Shown here: piece by piece, positions 100 to 52,368 of the stretch
Layout: every line of letters begins with the position of its first letter
Position numbering within the stretch: the stretch's first letter is position 1
Position numbers and translations under genes: made by a program
The notes under the pieces: model-generated
The model's input: the letters and a program-made list of their open reading frames with translations, nothing else
Databases searched by the model: none
What the model was told of the DNA's origin: nothing
IMG/VR virus record: IMGVR_UViG_3300045988_112980
Reading direction: 5' to 3' (one strand)
Length of the DNA: 52,368 bases
Source: a virus

Positions 100-1332
100 G
101 ACAACATCAGGGATGATTTCGCCTCCCTCTCCGAAAATGACTGACTTCACATAAGCCTCCGTGCGGGCTTCATTGCCGACATGGGAATAACCCGTATAAT
201 TGCTGTCATTGAACTTCTCGGGGTCATCAGTGACAAAAACTTTGCTCAACCCTCCTGCGGCGGCTGACTGTATTTGAATGTTGATACCGTCCGTCCACTG
301 CCAAATATGCCCAAACGGGTTTTCGATACCACGATAACGGCACACTTTGACTTTCTTTGAAGAAGTGTCATATTCAGTGGGCATGGTATATTCTTTTTCG
401 CCTGTTCCGTTGCCGAGTTCATCCGTATAGCCACAAGGGATAAAAGGATAATAACCGTTGAACGTGTTCCATTTGCCGCTGTCAAGTGTTGTAACCCCGT
501 CTCCGAGACCGCCTTGTGCATAGCCGTTGCTGTCTTTTGCGGCGTTGTACGCCTTTTGTGAGTTGAGTGTGGCGTATTCAACGGCAAACAGCCAATAAAT
601 GTCTTTCTGAATGTCGTATGTCATACAGTTCCATTCTTTTGTTGACGGCTTTCTTTTCCGGGCGTAGGCTCGGAAGTTGGTACGTGAAATAGACGTTGCG
701 GGTCTTCCAAGTACGGAACGGTATGTGTTGTCCCAATCTGACTGATTGCCACCGCCCCTGTAATCCGCACCGTCATTCACAACTGAACATAGTTTGGTTG
801 TTGAACGCTGTACGGAAGCCTCATAAGCCGAAACGTATTTCTTCTTCACTTGATGATAGCCGGGCAGAGGGTATTCAGAGAACTTCACACGGCGTTTGTT
901 ACCCTCTGTTTCAAACTTGCGATAATACATCGGCAGTTCAACCATGACTTGCCCACGTGAGCCGTCACGGGTCTGACCCGTCCAATCCGATGGGTTGAGA
1001 TATTCAACCACGTTCCCGTTGTCATCAAGAAGACAGCCTTTCATGCGGTTGTGTACGGGTAGGGATTTATGAAGTGACATATTACCGATACGGGTAACGT
1101 CAGGGGATGATACCGTGACATCATATTCAATGCCGTACATACAGTTTTCTTCCATGTAGGGCAACATGGCTGCGAGAGCCGCTTTCTTGCTTTCCCCGTC
1201 TTCCAATACTTCACATAACAGTTTGAACGGGTTGTCGCCTGAAACGTCAGGCAGGTCACTCAATCGTTTTCCGTTTGTGAACGCTTCAATGATTTCCCTT
1301 ACTTTGTTTTCTTCATCTGTTGATAGTGCCAT
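1..1332 (-). CDS. DGR variable (target) protein 1, first 444 codons. The ORF is open at position 1 and continues across the junction to the stop at 52165 (478 aa in total)
   Basis: ATG at 1332..1330, about 30 nt after the upstream stop. The minus-strand frame is uninterrupted to position 1 (MALSTDEENKVREIIEAF...YFCDYHYTNIPSSGEVLRGVLFGGGAD). It is in frame with 52165..52368 once the 99-bp overlap is removed. It is not in the ORF track because it crosses the window edge. Confidence 0.85.
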   Translation of the reverse strand, partial: MALSTDEENKVREIIEAFTNGKRLSDLPDVSGDNPFKLLCEVLEDGESKKAALAAMLPYMEENCMYGIEYDVTVSSPDVTRIGNMSLHKSLPVHNRMKGCLLDDNGNVVEYLNPSDWTGQTRDGSRGQVMVELPMYYRKFETEGNKRRVKFSEYPLPGYHQVKKKYVSAYEASVQRSTTKLCSVVNDGADYRGGGNQSDWDNTYRSVLGRPATSISRTNFRAYARKRKPSTKEWNCMTYDIQKDIYWLFAVEYATLNSQKAYNAAKDSNGYAQGGLGDGVTTLDSGKWNTFNGYYPFIPCGYTDELGNGTGEKEYTMPTEYDTSSKKVKVCRYRGIENPFGHIWQWTDGINIQIQSAAAGGLSKVFVTDDPEKFNDSNYTGYSHVGNEARTEAYVKSVIFGEGGEIIPDVVGGGSTTYFCDYHYTNIPSSGEVLRGVLFGGGAD

Positions 1333-4291: not shown

Positions 4292-4293
4292 AC

Positions 4294-8295: not shown

Positions 8296-8306
8296 TGTTT
8301 CTGCCT

Positions 8307-9052: not shown

Positions 9053-9080
9053 ATCTGACGAATTTCTAAGTTATGATTAG

Positions 9081-9164: not shown

Positions 9165-9183
9165 GAAAGTTTTCTTATTGCGC

Positions 9184-9642: not shown

Positions 9643-9670
9643 AACTTATTCGTTTTTAATGTTCTACAAT

Positions 9671-10123: not shown

Positions 10124-10134
10124 ATAAGTTCTGT

Positions 10135-10575
10135 TTAATGAAATCCGAGTTGTTTCAACATTTGCGGTACAAGACGCTCGGCAAGAAGTTCTGAACTGTC
10201 AAGAACGTCAAGCCCTTTTGCGGACACATAAGAAGCGTAGTTCATACCAGCCACGACAATAAGGCAAATCCCCTGCGGGAATTTTCTTGCGAGGCTTTTC
10301 ACATACGCTGCCCCCTTTGAAGAACCGTCCTTGCCTTGTTTCACGGTTTGGAAACTGGATGAATGGATTATTCGCCCGTCAACCGTGATAACATAGCCGA
10401 TTGAACTTCTCAGGTTGCCCGTGCGGTCTTTGTAAGAATTGGTTGAACGTGCCCTGTTCAAGACTGTCTCCCCGATATACATCAGGTTTCGGATAAGAAC
10501 TTGTTTCAGCCTTTCAAGCTGCTGTTCCGTGTATCTGTCAATCTCCGACATCGGTGTTAGTTGTGTGATAGGCAT
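10135..10575 (-). CDS. HK97 gp10-like head-tail joining protein
   Basis: 146-aa ORF with a DRTGNLRSSIGY motif resembling the gp10 family. Confidence 0.5.
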   Translation of the reverse strand: MPITQLTPMSEIDRYTEQQLERLKQVLIRNLMYIGETVLNRARSTNSYKDRTGNLRSSIGYVITVDGRIIHSSSFQTVKQGKDGSSKGAAYVKSLARKFPQGICLIVVAGMNYASYVSAKGLDVLDSSELLAERLVPQMLKQLGFH

Positions 10576-10684
10576 ATTCTTCTCAGTTATTTTTTGCGAA
10601 ATCGGCGCATGTGGCGTTTACTTTTCTTATTGGTATGTTTGACCGGGTTGAAAAAGAAAAGCCGACATACAGCCGCACATCGCT

Positions 10685-11008
10685 TTAGACCAAAATTCTT
10701 ACTTCGCACACGGCTTCAAGCGGTTCTGCCTGAATGATTGAAAACGTGCCAATCTCTTTTCCTGACAAGTCTTTCAAGCGTAGCTGTTCCGATGGAACGG
10801 GCTGTTCTTCAATCAGGATTTCATAGGAAGCCACTGTGAAGTGTTCCCCCTTGATAATTCCGAGTTGGTTGAACTTCTTCGCCTTGAATTGACATGGAAC
10901 AGGTTCGCCCCATGCCACGGAAGACGGTTTGACGGGATAACCCGTTTCAGGGTCAATCCCGCCCGCTGTCTTTGTCTTGAATTCGATTGTTCCGTTTTGA
11001 ATAAGCAT
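10685..11008 (-). CDS. Head closure or head-tail adaptor protein (by position)
   Basis: 107-aa ORF in the connector block. Confidence 0.4.
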   Translation of the reverse strand: MLIQNGTIEFKTKTAGGIDPETGYPVKPSSVAWGEPVPCQFKAKKFNQLGIIKGEHFTVASYEILIEEQPVPSEQLRLKDLSGKEIGTFSIIQAEPLEAVCEVRILV

Positions 11009-11020
11009 ACATTTCCGTTT

Positions 11021-11353
11021 TTAAAGCCGAGAACCTTTATATCCGTAAATAGGTTTGTTTGCGCTGCCGCTGTCATCGTCAAATTCTTTGTACAAGGCTT
11101 TGGCATGATTGCGGAATTGCGTTCTCTGTTCGTCCGTGAATGAAAAGGACTGACCGCCCTGAGACACGTCAGGAGCGAAAGACAGCCACAGAAGTAAGTC
11201 TGCTTTGGCGAGGTTGTAGGCTTTCCCTTTCAGAACCTCTGCTGTCGCTTCCGTGTCAAGGTCAAGCCCCCGTTTGTCCGCTGTCTCAACAAGTGTTCGG
11301 AGCGGTATCGGGTAGGCGTTTATCCCTTTCAGGTTTTCGATAACTTTTGCCAT
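11021..11353 (-). CDS. Head-tail connector protein (by position)
   Basis: 110-aa ORF immediately after the capsid gene. Confidence 0.4.
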   Translation of the reverse strand: MAKVIENLKGINAYPIPLRTLVETADKRGLDLDTEATAEVLKGKAYNLAKADLLLWLSFAPDVSQGGQSFSFTDEQRTQFRNHAKALYKEFDDDSGSANKPIYGYKGSRL

Positions 11354-11368
11354 AATTCAAGACCGTCT

Positions 11369-12460
11369 TTAATCCCAATCTTGTGCGTCCGTTCTCACGT
11401 AGATGTTACGGTAAGCCGTATCAAATACGGGAATAGCGTCAGCCTGACCGATTGTAACCTCGCTCTTAGGCTCAATCGTGCCGTACTTCTTCACGACTGT
11501 ATGGGCACGCACGGCTCTCAGAATTGTTTCTTCATTTTCCTGAAGAATGTCATACTGCGTGGAACCGAGTATTTCACTTTCTGACAAAATCATACGGCTG
11601 TTCTCAAACGGGTTGCCAGAAGTCTGTGAACCGTCTGAAAATTCACGGGTGATGGTTTGGTCGATAACACGCAGTTGAATACCGTTCAGCCATGCTTGTT
11701 TTGCGAGCATGGTATTTACAGCAGCCAAGTCAGGTGTTTGAGAGATACCGAGGGCGTTGGCGGCGAAAGAAGCGCACTGTTTAATAATTTGTTCCGCAGA
11801 ACAGATTTTGTACAGTTCATCCAAATTGATGAAAGCGTACTTCAAGTTCAGGTTATGATCCTTACCCAACTTCACGAATTTAGCAAGGTCGCCGATAATG
11901 TCAGCAGTTGACTTGCTGTTCCAATCAACGGATGATTTGGTTTTCATCTCATCATCCACGTCATAGTCAAGGTCAAATTCATTGGCATAGGTTGCGTTCG
12001 TGGTGGTTGTGAATTTAAGCACGCCAGCGTTTGAAGCGAGTTTCCATGCAATGTATTCTTCCTCAGACTGAACGCCGTTGAAACAGAAATCAACATCATT
12101 TCCCCAATACTCAACAAGTTTGGTAGCATCTTCATCCTGAGCGAAAGCCAAAGCCGTTTGATAATCTTTGATTTCAGAGCGTGAAAGTTCACGGCTGATA
12201 GAGATAAACGGAATATCTCCACGTGCGCTCTCGAATATCGGGCGGCGTTTACGCATGATAGTTCCGTTGTCAGTATGCAGGTCGGCGGCGACATTCTTCT
12301 TTTCAAGCTGGTTCGTTAAGGTTTTCCAGTTGAAGCCGTTGACTTTCTTAACGGGGAAGTGCTTTCCGAAAAGGAAGCCCGAAGCGTCAGCCGAATTCAG
12401 ACGGGCTTGAACCATTTGTTCGGTCAAACCCTGAATCATTGTATTTACAATAGTTCCCAT
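11369..12460 (-). CDS. Major capsid protein
   Basis: 363-aa ORF that follows the scaffold and decoration genes. Its size and position are typical of an HK97-fold capsid protein. Confidence 0.65.
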   Translation of the reverse strand: MGTIVNTMIQGLTEQMVQARLNSADASGFLFGKHFPVKKVNGFNWKTLTNQLEKKNVAADLHTDNGTIMRKRRPIFESARGDIPFISISRELSRSEIKDYQTALAFAQDEDATKLVEYWGNDVDFCFNGVQSEEEYIAWKLASNAGVLKFTTTTNATYANEFDLDYDVDDEMKTKSSVDWNSKSTADIIGDLAKFVKLGKDHNLNLKYAFINLDELYKICSAEQIIKQCASFAANALGISQTPDLAAVNTMLAKQAWLNGIQLRVIDQTITREFSDGSQTSGNPFENSRMILSESEILGSTQYDILQENEETILRAVRAHTVVKKYGTIEPKSEVTIGQADAIPVFDTAYRNIYVRTDAQDWD

Positions 12461-12473
12461 AAATTACTTACGA

Positions 12474-13097
12474 TTAATAGTTTATGATACCTTTGAGGTG
12501 TTTCATCACGCATTCAGGAAGCGGGTTGCCCTTTGTCACGCCAATAAGCCAAGCGTCCGTGTCAAGGTTTGAGTTTTGCACGATGGGCTTGCCTGTTCCG
12601 ACAAGTGAAAGCGGGGTGTATTTCAGTTTTGAGGTTTCCGCTGCCGATTCCGCTGCCGATTCCGCTGCCGATTCCGCTGCGGCTTCAATGATAAATCCGC
12701 CTTTCTCAATCTTCACTCCAAGAGTGGTCTTGACCTTGATTGTGTCGTGGGTTTTCTCTGTGGTTGTGATAGATGTGATAGCGTAAGCCTTGCCACCTTC
12801 ATCAGCCATGATGAAATCGCCAACTTTGAAATTGTGACCTTTATTTACTTTGATGTCAGTTGCGGTATCTGTCGCTTCTGCCGACAGAACGGCAATCTTC
12901 ACAACGTGGCAAATGCCGTTGTCGGGTGCGCTCAATACTGCGCCCTCGTTCAGAAAATCGCCGCCGAGTTCAGAAACCTTGACCGAAACGCCGCCGCGAA
13001 TATCCGCTGTTTTGTGCATGAAGACACGAGGTGTGCGTGTGTCTTTCCTGCGTGTTACTGTCATTCCCATTTTTGAATGATTTTGGATGTTAAACAT
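12474..13097 (-). CDS. Capsid-associated or head decoration-like protein with an (AESA)n repeat
   Basis: 207-aa ORF whose start overlaps the scaffold stop (TAATG). Confidence 0.4.
   Translation of the reverse strand: MFNIQNHSKMGMTVTRRKDTRTPRVFMHKTADIRGGVSVKVSELGGDFLNEGAVLSAPDNGICHVVKIAVLSAEATDTATDIKVNKGHNFKVGDFIMADEGGKAYAITSITTTEKTHDTIKVKTTLGVKIEKGGFIIEAAAESAAESAAESAAETSKLKYTPLSLVGTGKPIVQNSNLDTDAWLIGVTKGNPLPECVMKHLKGIINY
12636..12680 (-). repeat. 12-bp tandem repeat, about 3.8 copies (ttccgctgccga), encoding AESAAESAAESAAE
   Basis: Read directly from the sequence. Confidence 0.9.
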
Positions 13098-13807
13098 TAG
13101 AACGGCTGACCGTCGGCGGGCTTGTTGTCACGGTGTGATATAGCCTCCAATTGCTCTTTTGTCAGTTCGTTCCCTTGACTTGATGAACCGCCGTTCTGTG
13201 CGGCAGGTCTTCCGAAAACAGCCCCTTTTGCCCGTGTGTCATTGACAATGCCGTCCACTTCGGTAGTGATTTCGCCGACAAGCGTGTTGAACTGTTCATC
13301 GGTTAGACCGTCAACAGGTGTGCGCTCGTAAGCCTTGCGTAGATTTTCAGGCAGTTTTTCAATGATTGTGGAAAGTTGTTGCTTGCGGGTTGCAGTTGTA
13401 CGGTCTCCATCCATTTTGTTCAAACGCTCGGTTATCGTCTTGTTGCTTTCGATAAGAGCCTGTGCCCAAGCCGGAACTTGCTCGCCCCCTGCGGATTGTG
13501 TCTGAACGGTTTGCGTTCCTCCTTGCTGACCGCCCTGAGAGCCGCCCCCGTTATCAATCTTTTGCCCGTCTTTCAGACCGTATTTGGTTTCATAGGTTTG
13601 TACGGCTGTCTGTTGGGCTTCTGTCGCACGGCTGTCGCCGTAGCTTTCAATGATTTCGATGAACTCTTTTGTTACCCCTGCAATAGCAGTTGTTATTTGT
13701 TCATCTGTGGTTACAGTCTTGGCGAGTTTATCGGCAATCCTGTTCAATACATTTGCGTTGACCCCCGGAAATTTGGCTTTCAACGCCTCTAAAATCTTTT
13801 GTTTCAT
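13097..13807 (-). CDS. Scaffolding protein (by position)
   Basis: 236-aa ORF with a Gly/Gln-rich linker (GGGSQGGQQGG). It is the first gene of the head operon. Confidence 0.5.
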   Translation of the reverse strand: MKQKILEALKAKFPGVNANVLNRIADKLAKTVTTDEQITTAIAGVTKEFIEIIESYGDSRATEAQQTAVQTYETKYGLKDGQKIDNGGGSQGGQQGGTQTVQTQSAGGEQVPAWAQALIESNKTITERLNKMDGDRTTATRKQQLSTIIEKLPENLRKAYERTPVDGLTDEQFNTLVGEITTEVDGIVNDTRAKGAVFGRPAAQNGGSSSQGNELTKEQLEAISHRDNKPADGQPF

Positions 13808-13842
13808 AATGAATGCTTTGTTTAACTGAAAAGTTTACGCAA

Positions 13843-13850
13843 CAAAGGTA
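13843..13850 (-). promoter_or_regulatory. Bacteroides-type -7 box TACCTTTG for the head operon
   Basis: Matches TAnnTTTG, about 36 nt upstream of the ATG at 13807. Confidence 0.4.
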
Positions 13851-13863
13851 TGCTTTATTTCTT

Positions 13864-13883
13864 AAAGTGATTACAATATACTC
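13864..13883. promoter_or_regulatory. Dispersed regulatory motif, copy 1 (AAAGTGATTA-CAATA-TACTC)
   Basis: A member of the GTGATTA-N5-TAATCAC/TACTC family, which occurs at 8 intergenic sites. Confidence 0.5.
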
Positions 13884-13969
13884 AGAAAAATAATGCTTTT
13901 TCTTGTTTGTCTCAGTTTTTATGCTATAAAATATGCTTTTAAGCTATTTTGAGGCTGTTTTTGAGATAA

Positions 13970-14009
13970 TGGAGTTAAATACTACGGAAGTGGAGTTAAG
14001 TGGGGTTAA
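13970..14009 (+). repeat. Three direct copies of TGGRGTTAA (13970, 13991, 14001) in the divergent control region
   Basis: Read directly from the sequence. Confidence 0.6.
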
Positions 14010-14069
14010 AAATAATCTGTTCAGTTAATTTTTATCCGAAAAAGTTGATTATTTCCAAAATACTTAACT

Positions 14070-14077
14070 TATATTTG
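14070..14077 (+). promoter_or_regulatory. Bacteroides-type -7 box TATATTTG for the plus-strand accessory island
   Basis: Matches TAnnTTTG, about 50 nt upstream of the ATG at 14126. Confidence 0.4.
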
Positions 14078-14081
14078 CAAC

Positions 14082-14100
14082 ATGATTAAGATGTAATCAC
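14082..14100. promoter_or_regulatory. Dispersed regulatory motif, copy 2 (ATGATTA-AGATG-TAATCAC), just downstream of the -7 box
   Basis: 7-5-7 inverted repeat followed by TTTT. Confidence 0.5.
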
Positions 14101-14125
14101 TTTTGAACCTCAAAAAAACAGAAAT

Positions 14126-14365
14126 ATGAAGACAGTGAGTTTAGCATACAGCACAAGAGAAATCAACCGTAATTTCAGAATTAAGGTTTCAGGCGTTGAT
14201 GGCGAGGGGAACAAGGTTCACAAGCTGGTTGGCGTTTCAGGGGCTATCGCTCTTATCGGTGTTGAAATGTTCAATAAACTTTTGAAGCGGGCTTTCAATA
14301 ACGTTGAAGACAAATGCGTATGCAAACTCCGCAGAGGTATTAAATTTTCATTTTATATCAAATAA
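14126..14365 (+). CDS. Hypothetical protein
   Basis: 79-aa ORF, first gene of the plus-strand island. Confidence 0.45.
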   Translation: MKTVSLAYSTREINRNFRIKVSGVDGEGNKVHKLVGVSGAIALIGVEMFNKLLKRAFNNVEDKCVCKLRRGIKFSFYIK

Positions 14366-14381
14366 TCAGGAGGAAAAGATT

Positions 14382-14588
14382 ATGGTAATCAATTTTAGAA
14401 AACTGAACCGTCAGGTTCTCCCTTTCAAGCCCGAAACGAAACAAGGATTTATCTTCATCGCCACAAACGAACAAAAGGAAAACGGTCTTTTCAGTATCGC
14501 AAAAGTTGGGAGCAAAAGAAGCCTTATGACTATTCTCGTTGATACTATCAATTCCGATGAAGACTTCAAACGCGAATTTTCAATCTGA
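14382..14588 (+). CDS. Hypothetical small protein
   Basis: ATG at 14382 preceded by AGGAGG (14368..14373). The ORF-track start at 14304 overlaps the previous gene. Confidence 0.45.
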   Translation: MVINFRKLNRQVLPFKPETKQGFIFIATNEQKENGLFSIAKVGSKRSLMTILVDTINSDEDFKREFSI

Positions 14589-14604
14589 ACAGGAGGACAG
14601 AATT

Positions 14605-14736
14605 ATGAAAGACAATATGAACAGTATTATCGAAGCGGCTTTTTGGGCGGGATTTGAACCAAGTTCAGATGACTTGACAGAAGCCGCCTTGTATGAGGAA
14701 GCAAAGGTATATTTAGAAAAATCAATTCAGTATTAA
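14605..14736 (+). CDS. Hypothetical small protein (43 aa)
   Basis: ATG at 14605 preceded by AGGAGG (14591..14596). Confidence 0.4.
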   Translation: MKDNMNSIIEAAFWAGFEPSSDDLTEAALYEEAKVYLEKSIQY

Positions 14737-14756
14737 CCCAAATAAAATTTTCAAGT

Positions 14757-15911
14757 ATGGAAACAATGACAGTGACAAACGAAAAGACCCTGCAACAGGG
14801 TTTGAATGATGTTGTAATCAACAAGGTTCAGAGAATGATAGACGGTAAATCCGTTGGGGTTCAAGCTACAATGGAGCGTCTTATCAGCGAGGGAAAGATA
14901 GCGCAGGATTATATCGCCCCGATAGGCGTTAACCTGAGACAGAAAGACCACAGCCCCGTGATAACATTCAACGGGGGAGAACGTCTGATGATGAATATGC
15001 CTGACGGTCAGTTCTCGCTCCATGATAACGCCATAGGGCAGCTTGCTGACAGAATGGGAGTTCCGCAGCGTTATCTCAGACAGCTTGCGCAGGGGGCTGA
15101 GTGGGCTAAGAACCTTGCCGCCGAAATTCTGAACGAGCATAGCGGTTGGACGGAAAGAAGCCGTGTTCTTGTCAGAACCGTAGGGGAGCAGGTTCGGGGT
15201 GTTCTCTCTGACAGCTACCGCCGTCTGAACAGCGTTGAAATCCTGACGGCTTTTGTTCAGGAAGCGAGCAAGCAAGGGGCGGTAATTTCGGACGCTTATA
15301 TGAACGACACAAAGGTTTGGGCAGAAACAATCCTGCCACAGCCAATCGTCATACCGACAGCGAAGAACGGCGATGTCATCATATTTGCGGGCGCACGGTT
15401 CTCAACCTCTGACTACGGGGACGGGGCGGTTGACATGCGGGCGTTTCTCTTGAACGGGGCTTGCCTTAATGGTATGGTTCGTGAAAGCGTGATGAAGCAG
15501 GTTCACTTGGGGTCTAAGCTGCCTGATAACCTGAAACTATCCAACAAAACGTATGAACTTGACACGAAGACCACCGTTTCAGCGGTCAAAGACCTGACGA
15601 AAGGGCTGTTCGGGAAAGATAACCTGATGAAGAAAGCCTACGAGATACAGGGGGCTTCCGAAATTGATGTTGACTTTGAGCATGAATTGAAGAACCTGAC
15701 AAAGAACGGAAGTCTTCTGAAACAGGAAAGTAAGGAAGTTGAAAAGATTTTGATGCGCAATGACCCCGAAGATGGTGTTCAGGGAGGTTCAACCCTTTGG
15801 AAGCTCACTCAGGCAATCACGGCTCACGCCCGAGAACTGACTCCCGAAAGAAGCCGGGAATTACATGAAATTTCAGGTTCGCTTCTCAACCGTGTGAAAT
15901 TACAAGCATAA
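14757..15911 (+). CDS. DUF932-like phage/plasmid protein
   Basis: 384-aa ORF. The segment IGQLADRMGVPQRYLRQL...VLVRTVGEQVRGVLSDSYRRLNSVEIL resembles the DUF932 pattern (from memory, not searched). Confidence 0.5.
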   Translation: METMTVTNEKTLQQGLNDVVINKVQRMIDGKSVGVQATMERLISEGKIAQDYIAPIGVNLRQKDHSPVITFNGGERLMMNMPDGQFSLHDNAIGQLADRMGVPQRYLRQLAQGAEWAKNLAAEILNEHSGWTERSRVLVRTVGEQVRGVLSDSYRRLNSVEILTAFVQEASKQGAVISDAYMNDTKVWAETILPQPIVIPTAKNGDVIIFAGARFSTSDYGDGAVDMRAFLLNGACLNGMVRESVMKQVHLGSKLPDNLKLSNKTYELDTKTTVSAVKDLTKGLFGKDNLMKKAYEIQGASEIDVDFEHELKNLTKNGSLLKQESKEVEKILMRNDPEDGVQGGSTLWKLTQAITAHARELTPERSRELHEISGSLLNRVKLQA

Positions 15912-28187: not shown

Positions 28188-28339
28188 TTTGTTGGTATTT
28201 TAGTGTTAAACACGTCTTTGAGCCATTGTTTGTACGGTAGGATTGGTTTACCGTATAAAGTCATATTGGCTTTGTAGCTTTCGTACATCTGTTTGCGAAA
28301 ATCTACGGGAATTTGTTTTTTCTGATTTCTCAATTTCAT
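28184..28339 (-). CDS. Hypothetical small protein (51 aa, below the ORF-track cutoff)
   Basis: I translated MKLRNQKKQIPVDFRKQMYESYKANMTLYGKPILPYKQWLKDVFNTKIPTK. Its stop overlaps the next ATG (ATGA). Confidence 0.35.
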   Translation of the reverse strand: MKLRNQKKQIPVDFRKQMYESYKANMTLYGKPILPYKQWLKDVFNTKIPTK

Positions 28340-28350
28340 CTTTGTATATT

Positions 28351-33427: not shown

Positions 33428-33440
33428 ATTTGAGAGAATA

Positions 33441-33520
33441 AAACTCCGTATTTAGGGCTAACCACGCATAACAGCAAGCGTTTGAAAACCTTTCGGATGT
33501 TCAACCCATGTACGGAGTTT
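33441..33520 (-). other. Structured 5' leader with a 10-bp perfect long-range stem (AAACTCCGTA / TACGGAGTTT) enclosing 60 nt
   Basis: The inverted repeat was read directly. It lies between the predicted promoter and the helicase ATG. Confidence 0.4.
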
Positions 33521-33822: not shown

Positions 33823-34764
33823 TTATTTTAACAGGAAGCGGCGTGCCCCCTGAACCTCCCTTGAGAACTCGGAAACCATTTCAGGGTGTGCGGCTTTGAA
33901 AGCCTTGTCATCAAACTTCATTGACGGCTTGGGGGCTTTCCATGTGGCGAGCGTCTGACCTCCGTAGCTGATAGCCTCTGCGTCTCCGAAGCCGAGTTTA
34001 ATGCGTTCTTCCAACTCTGTCTTGATTTCATCAAGTTTATCCATCTCTTTCTTGACTTCTTTCAACTTTTGATAGTCTGAGAAAATAGCGTCATTCACTT
34101 CAACGATTTTCCCGTCCGTGTGACGGTTGAATTTCAGCAGAATGTCTTGAACCGATGTCGCTTCGGGTTCTTTCTTCCCCTGAATGTTGTCACGCCAAAA
34201 CTTTTCAACTTCTTCAACTATCCATGCGTAGAAGTCAGGAACAAAAGACAGGTCTTTATAGCCGAACTCACGTCCTGAACAGAGCCAAGCCAAACTGCCC
34301 TCTTTCAATTCTGCAACCCCGAGTTGATATTGAACCTGACAGAACCAATGCTTCGGCAGATCGTCAGAGGAAATTTTCATTTGGGTGGTCTTACATTCCA
34401 AAACACCTTTGTTTGAAGCGTTCTTCTTTTCTCCTGCGAGCCAATATGTACGGTCAGGGCTGACCTGTAGATAGGGGCGTTCATTATTTCTTATCAGCCA
34501 GTCCCCGGCTGATGACTTGATTATTTCACGTCCCGTATCGTCATGCCAAAACTGCGCAACAGCGTCTTCGAGATAATGACCCGCTTTCATAGCAAAGGTC
34601 TCTGTTTTAGGTTCATCAAGACCAACCTTGCGTCTCCAAAGCTGATAAGGGGTTTCCCACGGGTTCAACCCGAGAATGGTTGCAACCTCACTGCTCCCGA
34701 TACCTGACTTTCTGTGTTCAAGCCATTCGTTACGGTCTTTCGGTCTGATAATCGTGTAGCTCAT
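33823..34764 (-). CDS. YqaJ-type (lambda Exo-like) recombination exonuclease
   Basis: The sequence RNEWLEHRKSGIGSSEVATILGLNPWETPYQLW is a typical YqaJ N-terminus. Confidence 0.7.
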   Translation of the reverse strand: MSYTIIRPKDRNEWLEHRKSGIGSSEVATILGLNPWETPYQLWRRKVGLDEPKTETFAMKAGHYLEDAVAQFWHDDTGREIIKSSAGDWLIRNNERPYLQVSPDRTYWLAGEKKNASNKGVLECKTTQMKISSDDLPKHWFCQVQYQLGVAELKEGSLAWLCSGREFGYKDLSFVPDFYAWIVEEVEKFWRDNIQGKKEPEATSVQDILLKFNRHTDGKIVEVNDAIFSDYQKLKEVKKEMDKLDEIKTELEERIKLGFGDAEAISYGGQTLATWKAPKPSMKFDDKAFKAAHPEMVSEFSREVQGARRFLLK

Positions 34765-35072
34765 TTTCTTTCCTCCTGCTCTTTTGCGTTCAATATTGAT
34801 TTCATTAAAGACTCAGCCATGCTTAAAGCAGCAGCCCGTTTTAACAACTCACGTCCTTGCGGTTGTCTCATGAATCCGGCTAAGGCGTAAACGGCTTCTT
34901 CTTCATTTCCCATGATAGACCCGGTTTGACGTGAGCCTTCCCCGTTTTCGTCAGGCTCAGAGGCGATGACAATTACGGCGTGTCTCTTATCAGACTTTTC
35001 GATAAACTCTTGCGCTTCATTCTGAAAAGCGTTTACTTTCGATAAAAATTCGCTGTTATTTTTCGTTTCCAT
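34761..35072 (-). CDS. Hypothetical protein (start at METKNN; the ORF-track N-terminal extension is rejected)
   Basis: The extension to 35195 overlaps the VR2 gene in another frame. Confidence 0.45.
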   Translation of the reverse strand: METKNNSEFLSKVNAFQNEAQEFIEKSDKRHAVIVIASEPDENGEGSRQTGSIMGNEEEAVYALAGFMRQPQGRELLKRAAALSMAESLMKSILNAKEQEERK

Positions 35073-35110
35073 AAATTGTTGATATTTGAATGTTAAACAT
35101 TTGTTGTTAC

Positions 35111-35713
35111 TCACTTGCGGATAAGACAGAAGTCTGCCCAGATGTTGATGAACTGTTTCCCGCAGTAAACGGCGAGCGTGTCGCTCTTTAAGCAAAGGCG
35201 AGAACCGAGGTACGCAACCGCAGGCGAGGGGGTGTTACTCGAGAGCGCACAGGCGAGACCCGCATAACCTGTTTGATAGTCGCCTGTTGACATTAAGCGG
35301 CGGTCTGTTTTTTCGTCTTCATCCATGTCTTTGATTTCTTTCTGAGTATAGAGCCAATACCAAGGATAATAACGCCATTCGTCCTCTGTGAATTGAGGCT
35401 CCCAGCCCTCGTTCAAGGCGGCGCAGATGATACGGAGTTTCATATAAGCGAGAATGTCTTCTTGGTCGTCAAACTCTTCATGCTTTATCCATGCGGTGTA
35501 TGCGCTTACAAACGGGTGTTCTTCTCCAAGTTCACGGCAAGCGTCTTCAAAGGTTTTCACACGTTCTGTGATGTCTTTGGGCTTGAATGTATCTTCCCCG
35601 AAAACTTTGTGCATTTCGTTCTGAACCTGTTCTTTTGAAATAGCCGGGTAATTGGTTAATACCTGATAAAGTTCCCGCAAATCGTCTCTTTTGACTTCAA
35701 TTACTTCTTTCAT
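35111..35713 (-). CDS. DGR variable (target) protein 2: a 200-aa early-region protein carrying VR2
   Basis: The C-terminal segment YAGLACALSSNTPSPAVAYLGSRLC is encoded by a 77-nt copy of TR that differs only at TR adenines. Confidence 0.75.
   Translation of the reverse strand: MKEVIEVKRDDLRELYQVLTNYPAISKEQVQNEMHKVFGEDTFKPKDITERVKTFEDACRELGEEHPFVSAYTAWIKHEEFDDQEDILAYMKLRIICAALNEGWEPQFTEDEWRYYPWYWLYTQKEIKDMDEDEKTDRRLMSTGDYQTGYAGLACALSSNTPSPAVAYLGSRLCLKSDTLAVYCGKQFINIWADFCLIRK
35174..35186 (-). other. Short hairpin GAGCG-ACA-CGCTC, 3 nt downstream of VR2
   Basis: It shares the AGCG...CGCT core with the hairpin downstream of VR1. TR has no counterpart. Confidence 0.5.
35190..35266 (-). repeat. 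DGR variable repeat 2 (VR2), homologous to TR 51571..51647
   Basis: Ungapped 77-nt alignment with 15 mismatches, all at TR adenines (15 of 21 A positions changed, 0 of 56 non-A positions). Confidence 0.8.
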
Positions 35714-49954: not shown

Positions 49955-50368
49955 TTACAGAATACCGTATTCAAGGCAGTCTGCATCCACTTGCGCTTTC
50001 AGGGTAGCACGTTCGGATAGATAGGCTTTGTATGCCTCAATCTTTGCCTTGGCTTCCTCGCTTGACTTCGCCCCTCCAATCATACCGAGGTTCGCTGCGT
50101 TGAACTCATTCACAAGTTTTTGTTCCCGGTTGTTGTCCCATTTCTCCGTGATAACTGTTTCAGTTATCTTGTTTGAAGAAAGCGGAGCCCACACGGTAAC
50201 TTCTTCACATTTCCATTGTTCCTGAACCGGGGCTTCATCGTCAGAAGCGAGTTCGCTTGGTTCAACGGTGGCGGGTTTTTCAACTTTCTGAATGTTGAAG
50301 CGGTAAACGTAACTTCCGTTTCCGACAGCCTCCAATTTGGTCGGCTGATTGTCATAAAATGCTATCAT
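49955..50368 (-). CDS. Hypothetical protein overlapping the RT stop by 17 nt
   Basis: 137-aa ORF, the last gene of the DGR transcription unit. Confidence 0.5.
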   Translation of the reverse strand: MIAFYDNQPTKLEAVGNGSYVYRFNIQKVEKPATVEPSELASDDEAPVQEQWKCEEVTVWAPLSSNKITETVITEKWDNNREQKLVNEFNAANLGMIGGAKSSEEAKAKIEAYKAYLSERATLKAQVDADCLEYGIL

Positions 50369-51419
50369 AATAACACGGTTTAATGATTGTTTTTAATAAA
50401 TGTTTACTATCACTATGTTTCGCCCAACCGAGCCACGGGGCGACAGCCTGCTTATAAGCCTTTGCGTCAAGCGGAGGTTTGCGGCGGTTTAGCCGTGAGA
50501 CGGTATGGCAGAAATTCTTCTTAATGCTCTTGCGGATAAGTTTCTGTTTCCGAAAGAACAAATAACCGACATAATCAAGCGCACGCCCATGTTTGTCATA
50601 ACGGTTCTTTGCGATAGGGAATATCTGATAATTGCCTTTAATACTTAGTTCAAGTTCTTCCTCGATATATTCTTTTATGAACTTGAAAACCTGATGAAGA
50701 ACGTCCTTGCTTTCAGCCAAGAACGGTATATCGTCAGCGTATTCAATCGCTTTGATATATGGCTTTTCTTTCAGGTTCAAAGCCTTTCTGACAAGTTCCG
50801 GCAAACACTCGTTTACCCAATGCATGAAATAGCATAAATACAGGTTTGCGAGATATTGTGAGAGATAGTTCCCGATTGGAAGACCTTGTGCGCTGTCTAT
50901 GATTTCGTCAAGAAGCCACAACAGGTCAGCGTCCTTGATTTTACGGCGTATCAGTCTTTTCATCACATTGTGACTGATTGAGGGATAATACTTCTTGATG
51001 TCAATTTTCAGGCAATATAAGGGCTTTCCCTCAAACTCCTTTATTATCTTGTCAACTTGATGGGCGCACCCCTCTATACCACGTTTCTTGACACAAGAAT
51101 AAGTATTGTGCGTGAATGTTTTGACCCATATCGGTTCAAGAACATTCATAATTGCGTGATGTACTATTCTGTCGGGATAGTACGGAAGACGGAAAATAAG
51201 CCTTTCCTTTGGTTCAAAAATCGTGAAGACATCATAAGGAGAGGTTTTGAACGTCTTTGTCAGCAAGGCTTCATGTAAGGCAAGAATATTCGCTTCACGG
51301 TTCTTGTCGTGAACCCTGACCCCGTATGTGTGCGTTTTACCCTTGCGAGCCTTTCTGTCAGCTTCCCGCAAGTTCTCAACGGAGATTATGGTCTTATATA
51401 AGTTTCCTATTCTTTTCAT
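50352..51419 (-). CDS. DGR reverse transcriptase
   Basis: 355-aa ORF with the catalytic IEYADDIPF (YADD) motif and the DGR-typical LPIGNYLSQYLANLYL (IGxxxSQ) motif. TR lies 149 nt upstream. Confidence 0.9.
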   Translation of the reverse strand: MKRIGNLYKTIISVENLREADRKARKGKTHTYGVRVHDKNREANILALHEALLTKTFKTSPYDVFTIFEPKERLIFRLPYYPDRIVHHAIMNVLEPIWVKTFTHNTYSCVKKRGIEGCAHQVDKIIKEFEGKPLYCLKIDIKKYYPSISHNVMKRLIRRKIKDADLLWLLDEIIDSAQGLPIGNYLSQYLANLYLCYFMHWVNECLPELVRKALNLKEKPYIKAIEYADDIPFLAESKDVLHQVFKFIKEYIEEELELSIKGNYQIFPIAKNRYDKHGRALDYVGYLFFRKQKLIRKSIKKNFCHTVSRLNRRKPPLDAKAYKQAVAPWLGWAKHSDSKHLLKTIIKPCYYDSIL

Positions 51420-51568
51420 ACTTCTGCTTTGCTTTTCTTAGTCAGAGTTTTCGGTAGCCCATACAACAGGCGTTCCTACCAACACTTTTAGGAGGTTTGC
51501 TTGAAATCTTTTGCCAAGTGGCAAGGCTGTCATTCTTTTATTTTGTTTCATATTGTCAAAACCAATTT
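51420..51568 (-). ncRNA. TR-RT spacer (part of the DGR template RNA)
   Basis: 149-nt non-coding gap in the position of the priming spacer of characterised DGRs. Confidence 0.5.
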
Positions 51569-51685
51569 TAAAGCATAGGTGAGAACCGATGTTCGCATTC
51601 GTATTCGAGGGGGTGTTATTCGAGTTCGCATAGGCGAGACCTGCATTCGCACTGTTATTCGCGTTACCGCTGAACAGGACACCAC
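51569..51685 (-). repeat. DGR template repeat (TR)
   Basis: 117 nt, AAC/AAT-rich on the minus strand, homologous to VR1 and VR2. The 86-aa ORF-track entry here is not a gene. Confidence 0.9.
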
Positions 51686-51725
51686 AAGAATGACCCACCT
51701 TTTATTTTGTTATCTCATTGTGTTC

Positions 51726-52094
51726 TCATTCAAAATAATACCTGTTTCCGTTCCCTCTCAAAGTAACCTTTCGGGGAAACTTATTCATTTCTTTGATTTT
51801 CTTCAAGACATAAAGAATATCGGATGAACCCGTGAAAAATTTCTTGGCATCTGATTCCAAACTGTCTTTGGATGGCTTGATTTTTACAAGCGTCTGACCC
51901 TTGACACCCTTAGCCTTGCTGAACCTTGTAGGAACTTCTTCAATGAAATCAACCACCCAAAACGTGGTGTTTACGAGTTTTGATTGTATCGTTTCATCAC
52001 AATTGAAACTCCTGCTGTTTTCATCTCTCGGGATATTAAGGAAAGCGAGGCTTCCGTCATCTTCTTTTGGTATGTTGTTCATTTCTTCAATCAT
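51726..52094 (-). CDS. DGR accessory ORF in the Avd position (not recognisably Avd-like)
   Basis: 122-aa ORF between VR1 and TR with mixed charge and beta-rich-looking segments. Confidence 0.55.
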   Translation of the reverse strand: MIEEMNNIPKEDDGSLAFLNIPRDENSRSFNCDETIQSKLVNTTFWVVDFIEEVPTRFSKAKGVKGQTLVKIKPSKDSLESDAKKFFTGSSDILYVLKKIKEMNKFPRKVTLRGNGNRYYFE

Positions 52095-52118
52095 TGTTTT
52101 ATACTGTTATTATTTGAA

Positions 52119-52141
52119 CCCTGCCCCACAAAGAGGCAGGG
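52119..52141 (-). other. GC-rich hairpin CCCTGCC-N9-GGCAGGG downstream of VR1
   Basis: 7-bp GC stem, 24 nt after the target stop, with no T-tract. Confidence 0.5.
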
Positions 52142-52158
52142 AAAAGGTTATCACTCAA

Positions 52159-52171
52159 AGCGTGTTACGCT
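52159..52171 (-). other. Short hairpin AGCG-TAACA-CGCT, 10 nt downstream of VR1 (the stop codon is in the loop)
   Basis: It shares its core with the VR2-flanking hairpin at 35174..35186. Confidence 0.5.
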
Positions 52172-52368
52172 GGCGTGGGGATAAAGCAAAGGCGAGAACC
52201 GAAGTTCGCACCCGTATTCGAGGGGGCGTGATGCGAGCGCGCACAGGCGAGACCCGCATGCGCACCGTAATCCGCGCCACCGCCGAACAGGACACCACGT
52301 AACACTTCGCCTGAACTTGGTATGTTGGTATAGTGGTAATCACAGAAATAAGTCGTAGAACCGCCCCC
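52165..52368 (-). CDS. DGR variable protein 1, C-terminal part (52270..52368 duplicates 1..99)
   Basis: The frame GEVLRGVLFGGGADYGAHAGLACARSHHAPSNTGANFGSRLCFIPTPA ends at TAA 52167..52165. Confidence 0.85.
   Translation of the reverse strand, partial: GGGSTTYFCDYHYTNIPSSGEVLRGVLFGGGADYGAHAGLACARSHHAPSNTGANFGSRLCFIPTPA
52182..52298 (-). repeat. DGR variable repeat 1 (VR1)
   Basis: Ungapped 117-nt alignment to TR with 19 mismatches, all at TR adenines (19 of 30 A positions changed, 0 of 87 non-A positions). Confidence 0.9.
52270..52368. repeat. Terminal direct repeat, second copy (identical to 1..99)
   Basis: Exact match. Confidence 0.95.

What the first reader, a model, noticed from the sequence alone, without database searches (positions are those of the whole stretch)
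50352..52368. Complete diversity-generating retroelement: target-VR1, accessory ORF, TR, spacer, RT
All elements lie on the minus strand.
- The RT (50352..51419) carries YADD and the DGR-typical LPIGNYLSQ motif.
- TR (51569..51685) and VR1 (52182..52298) align without gaps over 117 nt. There are 19 differences and every one falls at a TR adenine (19 of 30 A positions changed, 0 of 87 other positions). Three more A-to-N differences extend the alignment to 51566.
- TR is rich in AAC and AAT codons. The changes recode N, S, Y, T, I and H residues.
- VR1 encodes the last roughly 40 aa of the 478-aa protein, ending ...GANFGSRLCFIPTPA. This is the usual position and flavour of C-type-lectin-fold DGR variable proteins.
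- The gene order copies the Bordetella phage BPP-1 mtd-avd-TR-brt layout.
- The cassette sits inside the tail module, between fibre-like genes and the 1220-aa Tal-like gene.
Basis: partly seen in the sequence, partly recalled or inferred. Interest (0 to 1): 0.8.

Follow-up and report, generated by a model that had tools for sequence, protein, structure and literature searches.

The report
Active phage DGR with non-Avd accessory
This gut Bacteroidales phage carries a working diversity-generating retroelement that rewrites the tip of a tail protein, and also a second, distant gene; in the slot where the textbook helper protein Avd would sit, it has an unrelated small protein found only inside such cassettes.

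Summary
TR (51569-51685) and VR1 (52182-52298) align over 117 nt with 19 mismatches, all at TR adenines (chance about 1.6e-14). The RT is 29% identical to Bordetella phage Brt. The 478-aa target is real once the 99-bp terminal overlap is circularised.

The element looks active in nature:
- Twenty related genomes carry 18 different VR1 sequences, with 382 TR-versus-own-VR mismatches at adenines and 3 elsewhere.
- One contig is identical to the window over about 3.1 kb of cassette except for 12 TR-adenine positions in VR1.
- Three TR C/T polymorphisms are mirrored by the VR of the same genome.

Corrections and additions:
- The 122-aa "accessory ORF" is not Avd. It is a confidently modelled beta-rich protein with no known family. 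Every homologue whose context was read (down to about 30% identity) lies between VR and TR, next to different target genes.
- A second target, VR2 (35190-35266), lies in a 200-aa protein in the recombination module and is equally hypervariable.
- The TR-RT spacer matches Rfam RT-17.
- The last two "A" differences and the three-base extension are fixed IMH/IMH* differences, not mutagenesis.
- The C-type-lectin fold could not be tested because the model was poor.

Verdict: a known kind of element, in a variant architecture.

The parts
52165..52368 (-). 3' part of the target gene 1 (478-aa tail protein), stop codon included. The gene starts at window 1332 and crosses the circular junction.
   Evidence: ORF reconstruction after removing the 99-bp terminal overlap. 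phrog_5302 'tail protein', E 1.7e-150. 27-51% identical to crAss-like and Bacteroides phage tail proteins.
100..1332 (-). 5' part of the target gene 1 (ATG at 1332). Bases 1-99 duplicate 52270-52368.
52182..52298 (-). VR1, the variable repeat. It encodes the C-terminal residues GVLFGGGADYGAHAGLACARSHHAPSNTGANFGSRLCF of the target.
   Evidence: 19 of 19 mismatches to TR at adenines. 18 distinct VR1 sequences in 20 related genomes, with 25 of 30 A columns variable against 5 of 87 non-A columns.
52182..52201 (-). Candidate IMH at the 3' end of VR1: CGGTTCTCGCCTTTGCTTTA. TR has CGGTTCTCACCTATGCTTTA at the same place.
   Evidence: The G and T that differ from TR are invariant in all 28 VR1 sequences and are also present in VR2.
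52159..52171 (-). Small hairpin AGCGT-AAC-ACGCT overlapping the target stop codon; a candidate target-recognition element.
   Evidence: DNA fold. Stem conserved in relatives. A similar hairpin follows VR2 and none follows TR.
52119..52141 (-). Larger GC-rich hairpin CCCTGCCTC-TTTGT-GGGGCAGGG between the target and the accessory gene. It could be a terminator or a cruciform; its role is unknown.
   Evidence: It is not conserved in divergent cassettes.
51726..52094 (-). Accessory gene: a 122-aa non-Avd protein (phrog_19665, function unknown).
   Evidence: No Pfam, NCBIfam or PDB sequence hit. AF2 model pLDDT 92, with a beta1-beta2-beta3-helix-beta4-beta5 order. No similarity to Avd. All 21 divergent homologues whose context was read lie between VR and TR.
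51569..51685 (-). TR, the template repeat, with 30 adenines. The 86-aa ORF across it (51438-51698) is probably spurious.
   Evidence: Five TR alleles among 20 genomes against 18 VR1 alleles.
51420..51568 (-). TR-RT spacer, containing the RT-17 RNA motif (RF03020) at 51425-51528.
   Evidence: 42.4 bits against a gathering score of 40.4. The same motif sits in the same position in related and divergent cassettes, up to 54.5 bits.
50352..51419 (-). DGR reverse transcriptase, 355 aa, with motifs IGNYLSQ and YADD.
35190..35266 (-). VR2, a second remote variable repeat matching the 3' 77 nt of TR.
   Evidence: 15 mismatches, all at TR adenines. 25 distinct sequences in 27 genomes. 17 of 19 A columns variable against 9 of 57 non-A columns.
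35111..35713 (-). Target gene 2: a 200-aa protein of unknown function (phrog_11581), lying between the 302-aa protein at the RecT position and the RecE/YqaJ-like exonuclease.
   Evidence: Its 90%-identity clusters hold up to 8164 member sequences.
35174..35186 (-). Hairpin GAGCG-ACA-CGCTC immediately 3' of VR2.

Best explanation
This is a complete diversity-generating retroelement of a temperate Bacteroidales phage, and it appears to be currently active.

**Proposed mechanism**
1. The TR and its downstream spacer (which holds the RT-17 RNA motif) are transcribed.
2. The Brt-like reverse transcriptase copies TR into cDNA and misincorporates opposite template adenines. It is probably helped by the 122-aa beta-rich protein that sits in the Avd slot.
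3. The cDNA replaces VR1 at the 3' end of a 478-aa tail protein gene.
4. The 3' 77 nt of the cDNA also replace VR2 in a 200-aa protein encoded about 16 kb away.
5. Direction is set by fixed 3'-end differences (VR CGCCTTTGCTT, TR CACCTATGCTT), possibly together with small hairpins that follow both VRs but not TR.

**Shown here:** the adenine-only pattern, the diversity in natural populations, TR-to-VR transfer of non-A polymorphisms, RT homology, the RNA motif, and the strict placement of the accessory gene.

**Inferred by analogy with BPP-1:** priming within the spacer, the role of the accessory protein, the function of IMH and the hairpins, and receptor binding by the variable tail protein.
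For: - **TR/VR1.** 19 of 19 mismatches fall at adenines, p about 1.6e-14.
- **Unbiased sample of relatives.** These were fetched through the accessory protein, not through VR. In 20 genomes there are 382 A mismatches against 3 non-A, 18 distinct VR1 sequences and 5 TR alleles. TR C/T polymorphisms at index 52, 61 and 94 are matched by the VR of the same genome.
- **Near-identical pair.** L020 equals the window at 0 of about 3,100 cassette positions outside VR1, but differs at 12 of 117 positions in VR1, all TR adenines.
- **Second sublineage.** 10 of 10 VR1 sequences are distinct, with A-only differences.
- **Genome-contig relatives.** All 12 loci show the same VR, accessory gene, TR arrangement.
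- **VR2.**
- **RT.** 29% identity to Brt with E 8e-40. The best solved-structure hit is the 328-aa 8ub7 chain at 3e-32, against 6e-12 for group II intron RTs.
- **Spacer RNA.** RT-17 lies in the spacer here and in divergent cassettes. Weinberg et al. placed the analogous RT-10 motif in the BPP-1 spacer (PMC5737381).
- **Accessory protein.**
- **Hypervariability in protein clusters.** Target clusters at 90% identity hold 3,892 to 15,553 member sequences.
Against: - No read-level data were available, so within-population variation was not shown directly.
- The accessory protein's role is by association only. Bacteroides phage Versailles, which has a related target, runs target, TR, RT without it, and the published crAssphage LMMB cassette has no accessory gene either (PMC7290462).
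- The C-type-lectin fold of either target was not demonstrated.
- TR adenine index 43 is a synonymous site (GCA to GCG) but is G in 28 of 28 VR1 and 26 of 27 VR2 sequences. Random adenine mutagenesis with protein-level selection does not predict this.
Confidence: 0.9

Rival explanations
1. The DGR is real, but the 122-aa ORF is only a passenger phage gene lodged between target and TR. Wu et al. call such genes nested 'X' ORFs. Retrohoming would then need only the RT and the RNA, as assumed for Avd-less lineage-3 DGRs.
For: Bacteroides phage Versailles, with a homologous target protein, has target, TR, RT and no such ORF, and crAssphage LMMB is published as accessory-free (PMC7290462). The accessory has no homologue in 50,697 deposited phage genomes. 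No biochemical evidence exists.
Against: Family members down to about 30% identity always sit between a VR and a TR. This holds next to unrelated target proteins, such as the 1281-aa Fn3_assoc/CHB_HEX_C protein in L025 and the 1128-aa protein in L027. The block from the end of VR1 through the accessory gene, TR and spacer is the most conserved part of the cassette (5% divergence or less in all but one relative), while target and RT alleles differ by 16-24%. The top BFVD structural matches are RT-annotated proteins.
Confidence: 0.3
2. The cassette is a fossil. VR diversity would reflect past DGR activity in the lineage, and the element in this genome no longer works.
For: Activity was not measured. 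One non-A change occurs in VR1 of L014 and one in L017/L021. Some relatives carry a 341-aa RT instead of 355 aa.
Against: The RT ORF is intact with its catalytic motifs. L020 is identical to the window over about 3.1 kb apart from 12 A-site changes in VR1. Nearly every sampled genome has its own VR1 and VR2. TR alleles are mirrored in the VRs.
Confidence: 0.07
3. VR2 is a decayed or incidental partial copy of the repeat, for example from an old duplication, and not a maintained DGR target.
For: Only the 3' 77 nt of TR are matched. VR2 is not at the very C-terminus of its protein. Frameshifted alleles occur.
Against: 25 of 27 genomes carry distinct VR2 sequences, with variation concentrated at TR adenines (17 of 19 A columns against 9 of 57 non-A columns). 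The common non-A variants sit at index 52, 61 and 94, where TR itself is polymorphic in other genomes. VR2 has the VR-type 3' end and a downstream hairpin. Protein clusters hold thousands of members.
Confidence: 0.08

Closest known systems
Bordetella phage BPP-1 DGR (mtd-avd-TR-brt)
   Same: The order is the same: target with a 3' VR, a small gene, TR, a structured spacer, RT, all on one strand. TR-to-VR differences are adenine-specific. The RT is 29% identical to Brt over its full length. Fixed 3'-end differences between VR and TR look like IMH and IMH*, and a hairpin follows the VR. The VR peptide aligns with the Mtd VR over 35 residues.
   Different: The small gene is not avd. There is no sequence similarity, and the model is beta-rich rather than a helical bundle (the Avd fold is from prior knowledge). 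The spacer matches Rfam RT-17, whereas BPP-1 has RT-10 (PMC5737381). The target has no detectable Mtd homology outside the VR. There is a second, remote target.
Avd-less 'Lineage 3 / CLec3' DGRs of Bacteroides and crAss-like phages (Wu et al. 2018, PMC5758913; crAssphage LMMB, PMC7290462)
   Same: The host is Bacteroidales and there is no avd. The VR ends in ...GSRLC, the SRLC/A ending reported for CLec3 VRs. The target is homologous to the crAss-like tail-collar fibre proteins that are published DGR targets (27% identity to the LMMB target).
   Different: The published architecture is target, TR, RT with no accessory gene. Here a conserved 122-aa gene sits between VR and TR. RT phylogenetic placement in Lineage 3 was not tested. 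The protein is not CH1 either: CH1 proteins are 160-169 aa with pI 4.7, whereas this one is 122 aa with pI 9.0.
[quoted passage not shown]
   Same: One TR serves an adjacent tail-protein VR and a second VR elsewhere. The second VR matches a shorter part of TR.
   Different: Those cassettes carry Avd. The second target here is a 200-aa protein of unknown function in the recombination/early module, not a tentaclin or a DUF1566/Fib_succ_major protein.

Membership tests
Diversity-generating retroelement (DGR) | Reverse transcriptase of the DGR clade, with motif 4 [I/L]GxxxSQ and YxDD | tested here: met
   IGNYLSQ and YADD are present. 29% identity and E 8e-40 to BPP-1 Brt over the full length. The best PDB sequence hit is 8ub7 at 3e-32, against 6e-12 for group II intron RTs. 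phrog_1423, E 1e-105.
Diversity-generating retroelement (DGR) | TR/VR repeat pair whose differences are confined to TR adenines | tested here: met
   19 of 19 at A, p 1.6e-14. VR2 has 15 of 15 at A. Pooled over 20 genomes: 382 A against 3 non-A.
Diversity-generating retroelement (DGR) | VR inside the coding sequence of a target gene; TR adenines placed in codon positions 1-2 (AAY codons) | tested here: met
   VR1 encodes residues 436-473 of the 478-aa protein. 28 of 30 TR adenines are in positions 1-2, and there are 11 AAY codons.
Diversity-generating retroelement (DGR) | IMH at the 3' end of VR, with a non-identical IMH* at the 3' end of TR | tested here: inconclusive
   The fixed difference CGCCTTTGCTT (VR1 and VR2) against CACCTATGCTT (TR) holds in all genomes. 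Its function in directionality was not tested.
Diversity-generating retroelement (DGR) | Evidence of ongoing diversification in populations | tested here: met
   Between-genome evidence: L020 against the window; 18 of 20, 10 of 10 and 25 of 27 sequences distinct. Read-level data were not available.
BPP-1-type architecture (avd-TR-RT, Wu architecture B1) | Accessory gene homologous to Avd (basic, about 128 aa) | tested here: not met
   No Pfam hit, which includes the Avd family. hhalign of family alignment A2 against BPP-1 Avd gives probability 0.2%. The AF2 model (pLDDT 92) has five strands and one main helix.
C-type-lectin-fold DGR variable proteins (Mtd/TvpA/CLec classes) | VR lies within a CLec or FGE-sulfatase-like fold | tested here: inconclusive
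   No Pfam hit and no PDB profile hit. The AF2 model has pLDDT 50, with the C-terminus at 23-30, so its fold search is meaningless. Only a 35-residue VR-level alignment to Mtd was found, at E 0.018. Indirect support: homology to published crAss-like targets assigned to CLec3 (PMC7290462).
Wu et al. Lineage 3 / CLec3 DGRs | No avd; VR of class CLec3 (ends SRLC/A); Bacteroides-type hosts; RT in the Lineage 3 clade | tested here: inconclusive
   No avd. The VR ends GSRLCF. Hosts are Phocaeicola, Mediterranea and Prevotella. RT tree placement and the CLec3 alignment could not be run because the reference sets are not held.
Rfam RT-17 RNA (RF03020) | Covariance-model score at or above the gathering threshold, next to an RT gene | tested here: met
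   42.4 bits against 40.4 at 51425-51528, 6 nt upstream of the RT start. 43-54 bits in relatives and 35 bits in L025.
CH1 accessory genes (Wu et al. architecture E) | 160-169 aa, acidic (pI 4.7), flanking Avd-less Bacteroides DGRs | tested here: not met
   The accessory is 122 aa with pI 8.97. ORF137 downstream of the RT is acidic (pI 4.64), but its homologue follows the tail protein in the DGR-less crAss phage cr111_1, so it belongs with the target gene rather than the DGR. No CH1 sequences were available for direct comparison.

The most novel reading that the evidence does not exclude
Two linked readings remain open.
1. The 122-aa beta-rich protein (phrog_19665 family) may be a previously unrecognised class of DGR accessory factor that takes the place of Avd in a very abundant lineage of Bacteroidales phage DGRs. 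It would work with the RT and the RT-17 spacer RNA. That would supply a candidate for the missing component of 'Avd-independent' mutagenic retrohoming noted by Wu et al.
2. The same element also hypermutates a small protein with no evident signal peptide, encoded in the early/recombination module (VR2). This suggests a DGR-diversified intracellular binder, for example one directed against variable host factors, rather than a receptor-binding protein.
Probability: 0.45. Interest if true: 0.7.

Novelty: new variant of a known kind. Interest (0 to 1): 0.55.

Why it matters
DGRs are the only known natural system of targeted protein hypermutation in prokaryotes. Their mechanism has been worked out almost entirely with the Avd-dependent BPP-1 element.

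About a quarter to a third of DGRs lack Avd, including the Bacteroides and crAss-like lineage that dominates the human gut. How those work is an open question (PMC5758913).

This phage family is present in thousands of public gut assemblies and in cultured Phocaeicola and Mediterranea genomes. It offers a concrete candidate replacement factor, a defined spacer RNA (RT-17), two natural targets with clear 3' boundary sequences, and host strains in which deletion tests could be done.

The second target also widens what phage DGRs are thought to diversify beyond tail fibres.

Tried and rejected
- **Target structure.** The AF2 model, built on 42 homologues of 70% identity or more, was too poor to use (pLDDT 50), and its fold search gave nothing. 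This used one of the two structure jobs, so neither target's C-type-lectin fold could be tested.
- **PDB profile searches.** Searches with the target and accessory alignments found nothing.
- **OB-fold reading of the accessory.** The strand-helix order suggests an OB-like barrel. Foldseek against PDB gave no significant match (best E 0.37, TM about 0.3, with only weak OB-fold proteins among the hits). I therefore do not claim an OB fold.
- **Accessory fused to RT.** The best BFVD matches are RT-annotated viral proteins, but I could not retrieve them. The fused sequences I could read (P0284, P0286) look like deletion derivatives. This stays a lead.
- **CH1 identity.** Rejected for the 122-aa protein and for ORF137.
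- **Alignment-based locus search.** The search for related loci with accessory alignment A2 failed because there was no conserved stretch.
- **DNA-level searches.** Megablast of the cassette against deposited phages found no match. The exact-pattern scan of genome contigs found none, and the metagenome scan found one locus.
- **First VR search.** The full-length TR pattern missed VR2. A partial-match scan found it.
- **Large hairpin as a conserved cruciform.** The hairpin at 52119-52141 is not conserved in divergent cassettes.
- **Wu et al. supplementary sequences.** The PAG1-4 and CH1 sequences are not held.
Full report
**1. Observation**

- TR (51569-51685) and VR1 (52182-52298) form the top direct repeat of the region. 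They align without gaps over 117 nt.
- There are 19 mismatches, every one at a TR adenine: 19 of 30 A positions and 0 of 87 others.
- If 19 mismatches fell at random on 117 positions, the chance that all hit adenines is 1.6e-14.
- The window begins and ends with the same 99 bases, so it is a circularly permuted assembly of 52,269 unique bases.
- After joining the ends, the target ORF runs from the ATG at 1332 across the junction to the stop at 52165-52167. It encodes 478 aa ending ...GANFGSRLCFIPTPA.
- TR read in the VR frame gives RGVLFSGNANNSANAGLAYANSNNTPSNTNANIGSHLCF. It has 11 AAC/AAT codons, and 28 of its 30 adenines are in codon positions 1-2.

**2. The reverse transcriptase**

- The 355-aa ORF (50352-51419) carries GLPIGNYLSQ and YADD.
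- It matches Pfam RVT_1 and phrog_1423.
- It is 29% identical to BPP-1 Brt over the whole length, E 8e-40.
- Among solved structures, the best hit is a 328-aa reverse transcriptase (8ub7 and eight related entries) at 3e-32. Group II intron RTs score 6e-12 or worse. The printed 8ub7 alignment reads the same as the Brt alignment.

**3. Is it active?**

To avoid circularity, I fetched relatives through the exact sequence of the neighbouring 122-aa protein and a 98%-identical variant, not through VR. I added five viral contigs found with a TR pattern and one metagenome contig found with a pattern from just downstream of VR1.

Twenty genomes have both repeats.
- They carry 18 different VR1 sequences but only five TR alleles.
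- Comparing each TR with its own VR gives 382 mismatches at adenines and 3 elsewhere.
- 25 of 30 A columns vary among the VRs, against 5 of 87 non-A columns.
- Three of those five non-A columns (index 52, 61, 94; C or T) are TR polymorphisms that the VR of the same genome copies exactly. That is what TR-to-VR transfer predicts.

The clearest case is contig L020. It is identical to the window at every aligned position of the target 5' part, the accessory gene, TR, the spacer and the RT, about 3,100 nt in all. It differs at 12 of 117 VR1 positions, all TR adenines.

L018 is identical to the window including VR1, so it is probably the same genome.

Further support:
- A second sublineage (accessory 86% identical; its index lists it in 1,105 blocks of the collection) shows 10 of 10 distinct VR1 sequences, with A-only differences.
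- Twelve loci from bacterial genome assemblies show the same VR, accessory gene, TR arrangement.
- At the protein level, the 90%-identity clusters of the target hold 3,892 to 15,553 member sequences.

This is between-genome evidence. Read-level data were not available.

**4. Boundaries**

Five TR adenines behave differently from the rest among the 28 VR1 sequences examined.
- Index 14, 43 and 105 are always G in VR1, and index 109 is always T. Index 116 is A in TR and in every VR1, so it is never a difference.
- Index 105 and 109 lie in the last 12 nt. The three "extension" differences are equally invariant.
- VR2 carries the same G and T at index 105 and 109.

I read CGGTTCTCGCCTTTGCTT (VR) against CGGTTCTCACCTATGCTT (TR) as the IMH/IMH* pair. 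The mutagenised tract then ends near index 95. Divergent cassettes show the same design: the VR keeps ...GSR-L-C while TR has adenines there.

Short hairpins follow both VRs and share ACACGC: AGCGT-AAC-ACGCT at 52159-52171 and GAGCG-ACA-CGCTC at 35174-35186. Nothing comparable follows TR. By analogy with the BPP-1 cruciform (prior knowledge), they are candidate target-recognition elements. This is inference only.

**5. The accessory ORF is not Avd**

What the protein is:
- The 122-aa protein (51726-52094) has no Pfam or NCBIfam hit and no PDB sequence hit. It matches only phrog_19665, a family of unknown function.
- An exhaustive search of 1.84 billion cluster representatives found a small family of 108 representatives.
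- A 35-sequence alignment (A2, 29-62% identity) gave a confident AF2 model, pLDDT 92. The order is strand 43-53, strand 66-72, strand 83-87, helix 90-101, strand 107-114, strand 117-120. This is not the helical Avd fold.
- hhalign of A2 against BPP-1 Avd gives a probability of 0.2%.
- It is not CH1 either: CH1 is 160-169 aa with pI 4.7 (PMC5758913), while this protein has pI 8.97 and the family mean is 7.45.

Fold searches:
- Foldseek against PDB found nothing significant.
- Against BFVD, the three matches with E at or below 0.001 are all viral proteins annotated as reverse transcriptases. The best has E 2.7e-6 and TM 0.67 over 117 columns. Phage SSB-annotated proteins appear at E about 0.02-0.03. 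I could not retrieve these entries, so this is a lead and not a result.

Context is the strongest evidence.
- Six divergent members (29-34% identical in alignment A2), found on nine contigs, all lie between a VR at the end of the upstream gene and a TR just downstream. An RT follows wherever the contig extends that far.
- Each locus has an A-only TR/VR run of 54-150 nt with 11-25 adenine mismatches.
- The upstream targets differ: a 1281-aa Fn3_assoc/CHB_HEX_C protein, a 1128-aa protein, a 467-aa protein and others.
- Within the close family, the stretch from the end of VR1 through the accessory gene, TR and spacer is the most conserved part of the cassette, at 5% divergence or less in all but one relative. 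The target 5' part and the RT occur as alleles that differ by 16-24% and are reassorted.

Against a required role:
- Bacteroides phage Versailles, with a homologous target, has target, TR, RT without this gene. crAssphage LMMB is published as target, TR, RT with no avd (PMC7290462).
- The family has no tblastn hit in 50,697 deposited phage genomes, even at E of 10 or less.

The papers I could search list avd, HRDC, MSL and CH1 as accessory classes. They state that Lineage 3 (Bacteroides and relatives) lacks avd and must use a variant mechanism (PMC5758913). I found no description of this family.

**6. Spacer RNA**

The 149-nt TR-RT spacer contains a match to Rfam RT-17 (RF03020) at 51425-51528. 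It scores 42.4 bits against a gathering score of 40.4.
- The motif recurs at the same place in relatives at 42-44 bits. It also recurs in divergent cassettes: L029 and L030 at 54.5 bits, and L025 at 35 bits.
- It is absent from Versailles.
- Weinberg et al. described RT-1 to RT-19 as motifs near RT genes. They placed RT-10 in the BPP-1 spacer and guessed that others serve other DGRs (PMC5737381).
- The present data assign RT-17 to this DGR lineage.

**7. A second target**

A partial-match scan of the whole window with TR found a 77-nt match at 35190-35266(-). All 15 of its mismatches are at TR adenines.
- It lies in a 200-aa ORF (35111-35713, phrog_11581, unknown function). Its neighbours are a 302-aa protein at the RecT position (phrog_3657, unknown function) and a RecE/YqaJ-like exonuclease. 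It is about 16 kb from TR.
- Among 27 related genomes, fetched through the neighbouring 302-aa protein or a downstream constant sequence, 25 have distinct VR2 sequences.
- 17 of 19 A columns vary, against 9 of 57 non-A columns. The common non-A variants are at index 52, 61 and 94, the positions where TR itself is polymorphic in other genomes.
- One viral contig supplies both an intact TR (L005) and a diversified VR2 (L070).
- The protein has no evident signal peptide on inspection of the sequence, has no Pfam family, and is annotated only as hypothetical.
- Three genomes have indels in VR2 at or next to TR-adenine positions. Two carry +1 and one carries -2. The +1 alleles fuse the ORF to the downstream frame, giving a 317-aa product. 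Many 316-319-aa clusters exist.

**8. Surroundings**

- On the minus strand the order is: tape-measure protein (1333 aa), a 161-aa ORF, a Dit-like protein (308 aa), two Ala-rich fibre-like proteins, target 1, the DGR core, ORF137, then a 1220-aa tail protein with a weak Prophage_tail match.
- ORF137 overlaps the RT stop and is acidic. Its homologues follow the RT in L026, L024 and Versailles. A homologue also follows the tail protein in crAss phage cr111_1, where I found neither a TR/VR pair nor an annotated RT.
- ORF137 therefore belongs with the target gene, and the DGR core looks like an insertion between the two.
- Hosts are Bacteroidales: Phocaeicola coprocola DSM 17136 (accessory 99% identical), Mediterranea massiliensis, and Prevotella and Alloprevotella MAGs. 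Many copies lie in contigs of 0.2-1.1 Mb, which suggests prophages.

**9. What could not be settled**

- The C-type-lectin fold of the targets is untested. The AF2 model of target 1 was poor. The PDB profile search and the fold search were empty. The only link to Mtd is a 35-residue VR alignment at 34% identity and E 0.018.
- Indirect support comes from homology to crAss-like tail-collar fibre proteins that are published DGR targets of class CLec3, whose VRs end in SRLC/A (PMC7290462).
- One observation is unexplained. TR adenine index 43 is a synonymous third-position site (GCA to GCG). It is G in 28 of 28 VR1 and 26 of 27 VR2 sequences, although neighbouring adenines take all four bases.

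**10. Verdict**

The finding is correct. This is a complete DGR that appears to be active. It is a member of a known kind and lies in a phage family that is very common in public gut data, so the element as such is not new.

Three things go beyond the textbook layout:
- a conserved non-Avd protein in the Avd slot, which is DGR-specific by context;
- the assignment of the RT-17 RNA to the spacer of this lineage;
- a second, remote, non-structural target.

On that basis I rate it a new variant of a known kind, of moderate interest.

Noticed in passing
window 35111-35713 (-), VR2 at 35190-35266: A second DGR target lies far from the cassette: a 200-aa protein of unknown function (phrog_11581) in the recombination module. 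It is hypervariable at TR-adenine positions in 25 of 27 related genomes.
   Followed up: yes
L050:3416-4369, L056, L060 (VR2 region); window 34761-35195 (-) is the downstream frame: Some relatives have +1 or -2 indels in VR2 at or next to TR-adenine positions. The +1 alleles fuse the 200-aa ORF to the overlapping downstream ORF, giving a 317-aa product. Many 316-319-aa clusters exist in public data. This could be RT slippage, decay, or a phase-variation-like switch.
   Followed up: partly
window 51642 (TR index 43); VR1 52255; VR2 about 35261: A synonymous third-position TR adenine (GCA) is G in 28 of 28 VR1 and 26 of 27 VR2 sequences, while neighbouring adenines take all four bases. Random adenine mutagenesis plus protein-level selection does not explain this.
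   Followed up: partly
window 33439-33520 (-): A strong match to the Rfam c4-2 RNA (RF02944, 62.7 bits against a gathering score of 41), which belongs to the c4 antisense RNA clan (CL00128). It lies just downstream of the RecE-like exonuclease gene.
   Followed up: no
window 1-99 and 52270-52368: An exact 99-bp terminal direct repeat, consistent with a circular assembly overlap. The DGR target gene spans the junction, so ORF lists of the linear window miss it.
   Followed up: yes
window 49955-50368 (-), ORF137: An acidic 137-aa ORF overlaps the RT stop. Homologues follow the RT in other cassettes, but one also follows the tail protein in the DGR-less crAss phage cr111_1 (gp096). It is therefore a partner of the target gene, and the DGR core looks like an insertion between the two.
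   Followed up: yes
cassette alignment of window with L002-L023 (window 50352-52368 and 100-1332): Mosaic pattern: the stretch from the end of VR1 through the accessory gene, TR and spacer differs by 5% or less in all but one relative, while the target 5' part and the RT occur as alleles 16-24% apart in different combinations. This suggests recombination around a conserved core.
   Followed up: partly
window about 28194-28346: The only megablast hit of a 24-kb stretch of the window to deposited phages is a 153-bp segment, 86.5% identical to a hypothetical/ParB-like partition gene region of Bacteroides phage Versailles. The phage may have a plasmid-like or partition function.
   Followed up: no
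proteins P0284 (257 aa) and P0286 (229 aa): Public proteins join the N-terminal part of an accessory homologue directly to RT fragments. They are probably deletion derivatives that lost TR. The BFVD fold hits to RT-annotated proteins may be similar, or may be true fusions.
   Followed up: partly
window 52119-52141 (-): A GC-rich 9-bp hairpin lies between the target stop and the accessory start and has no T-run after it. It is not found in divergent cassettes.
   Followed up: partly
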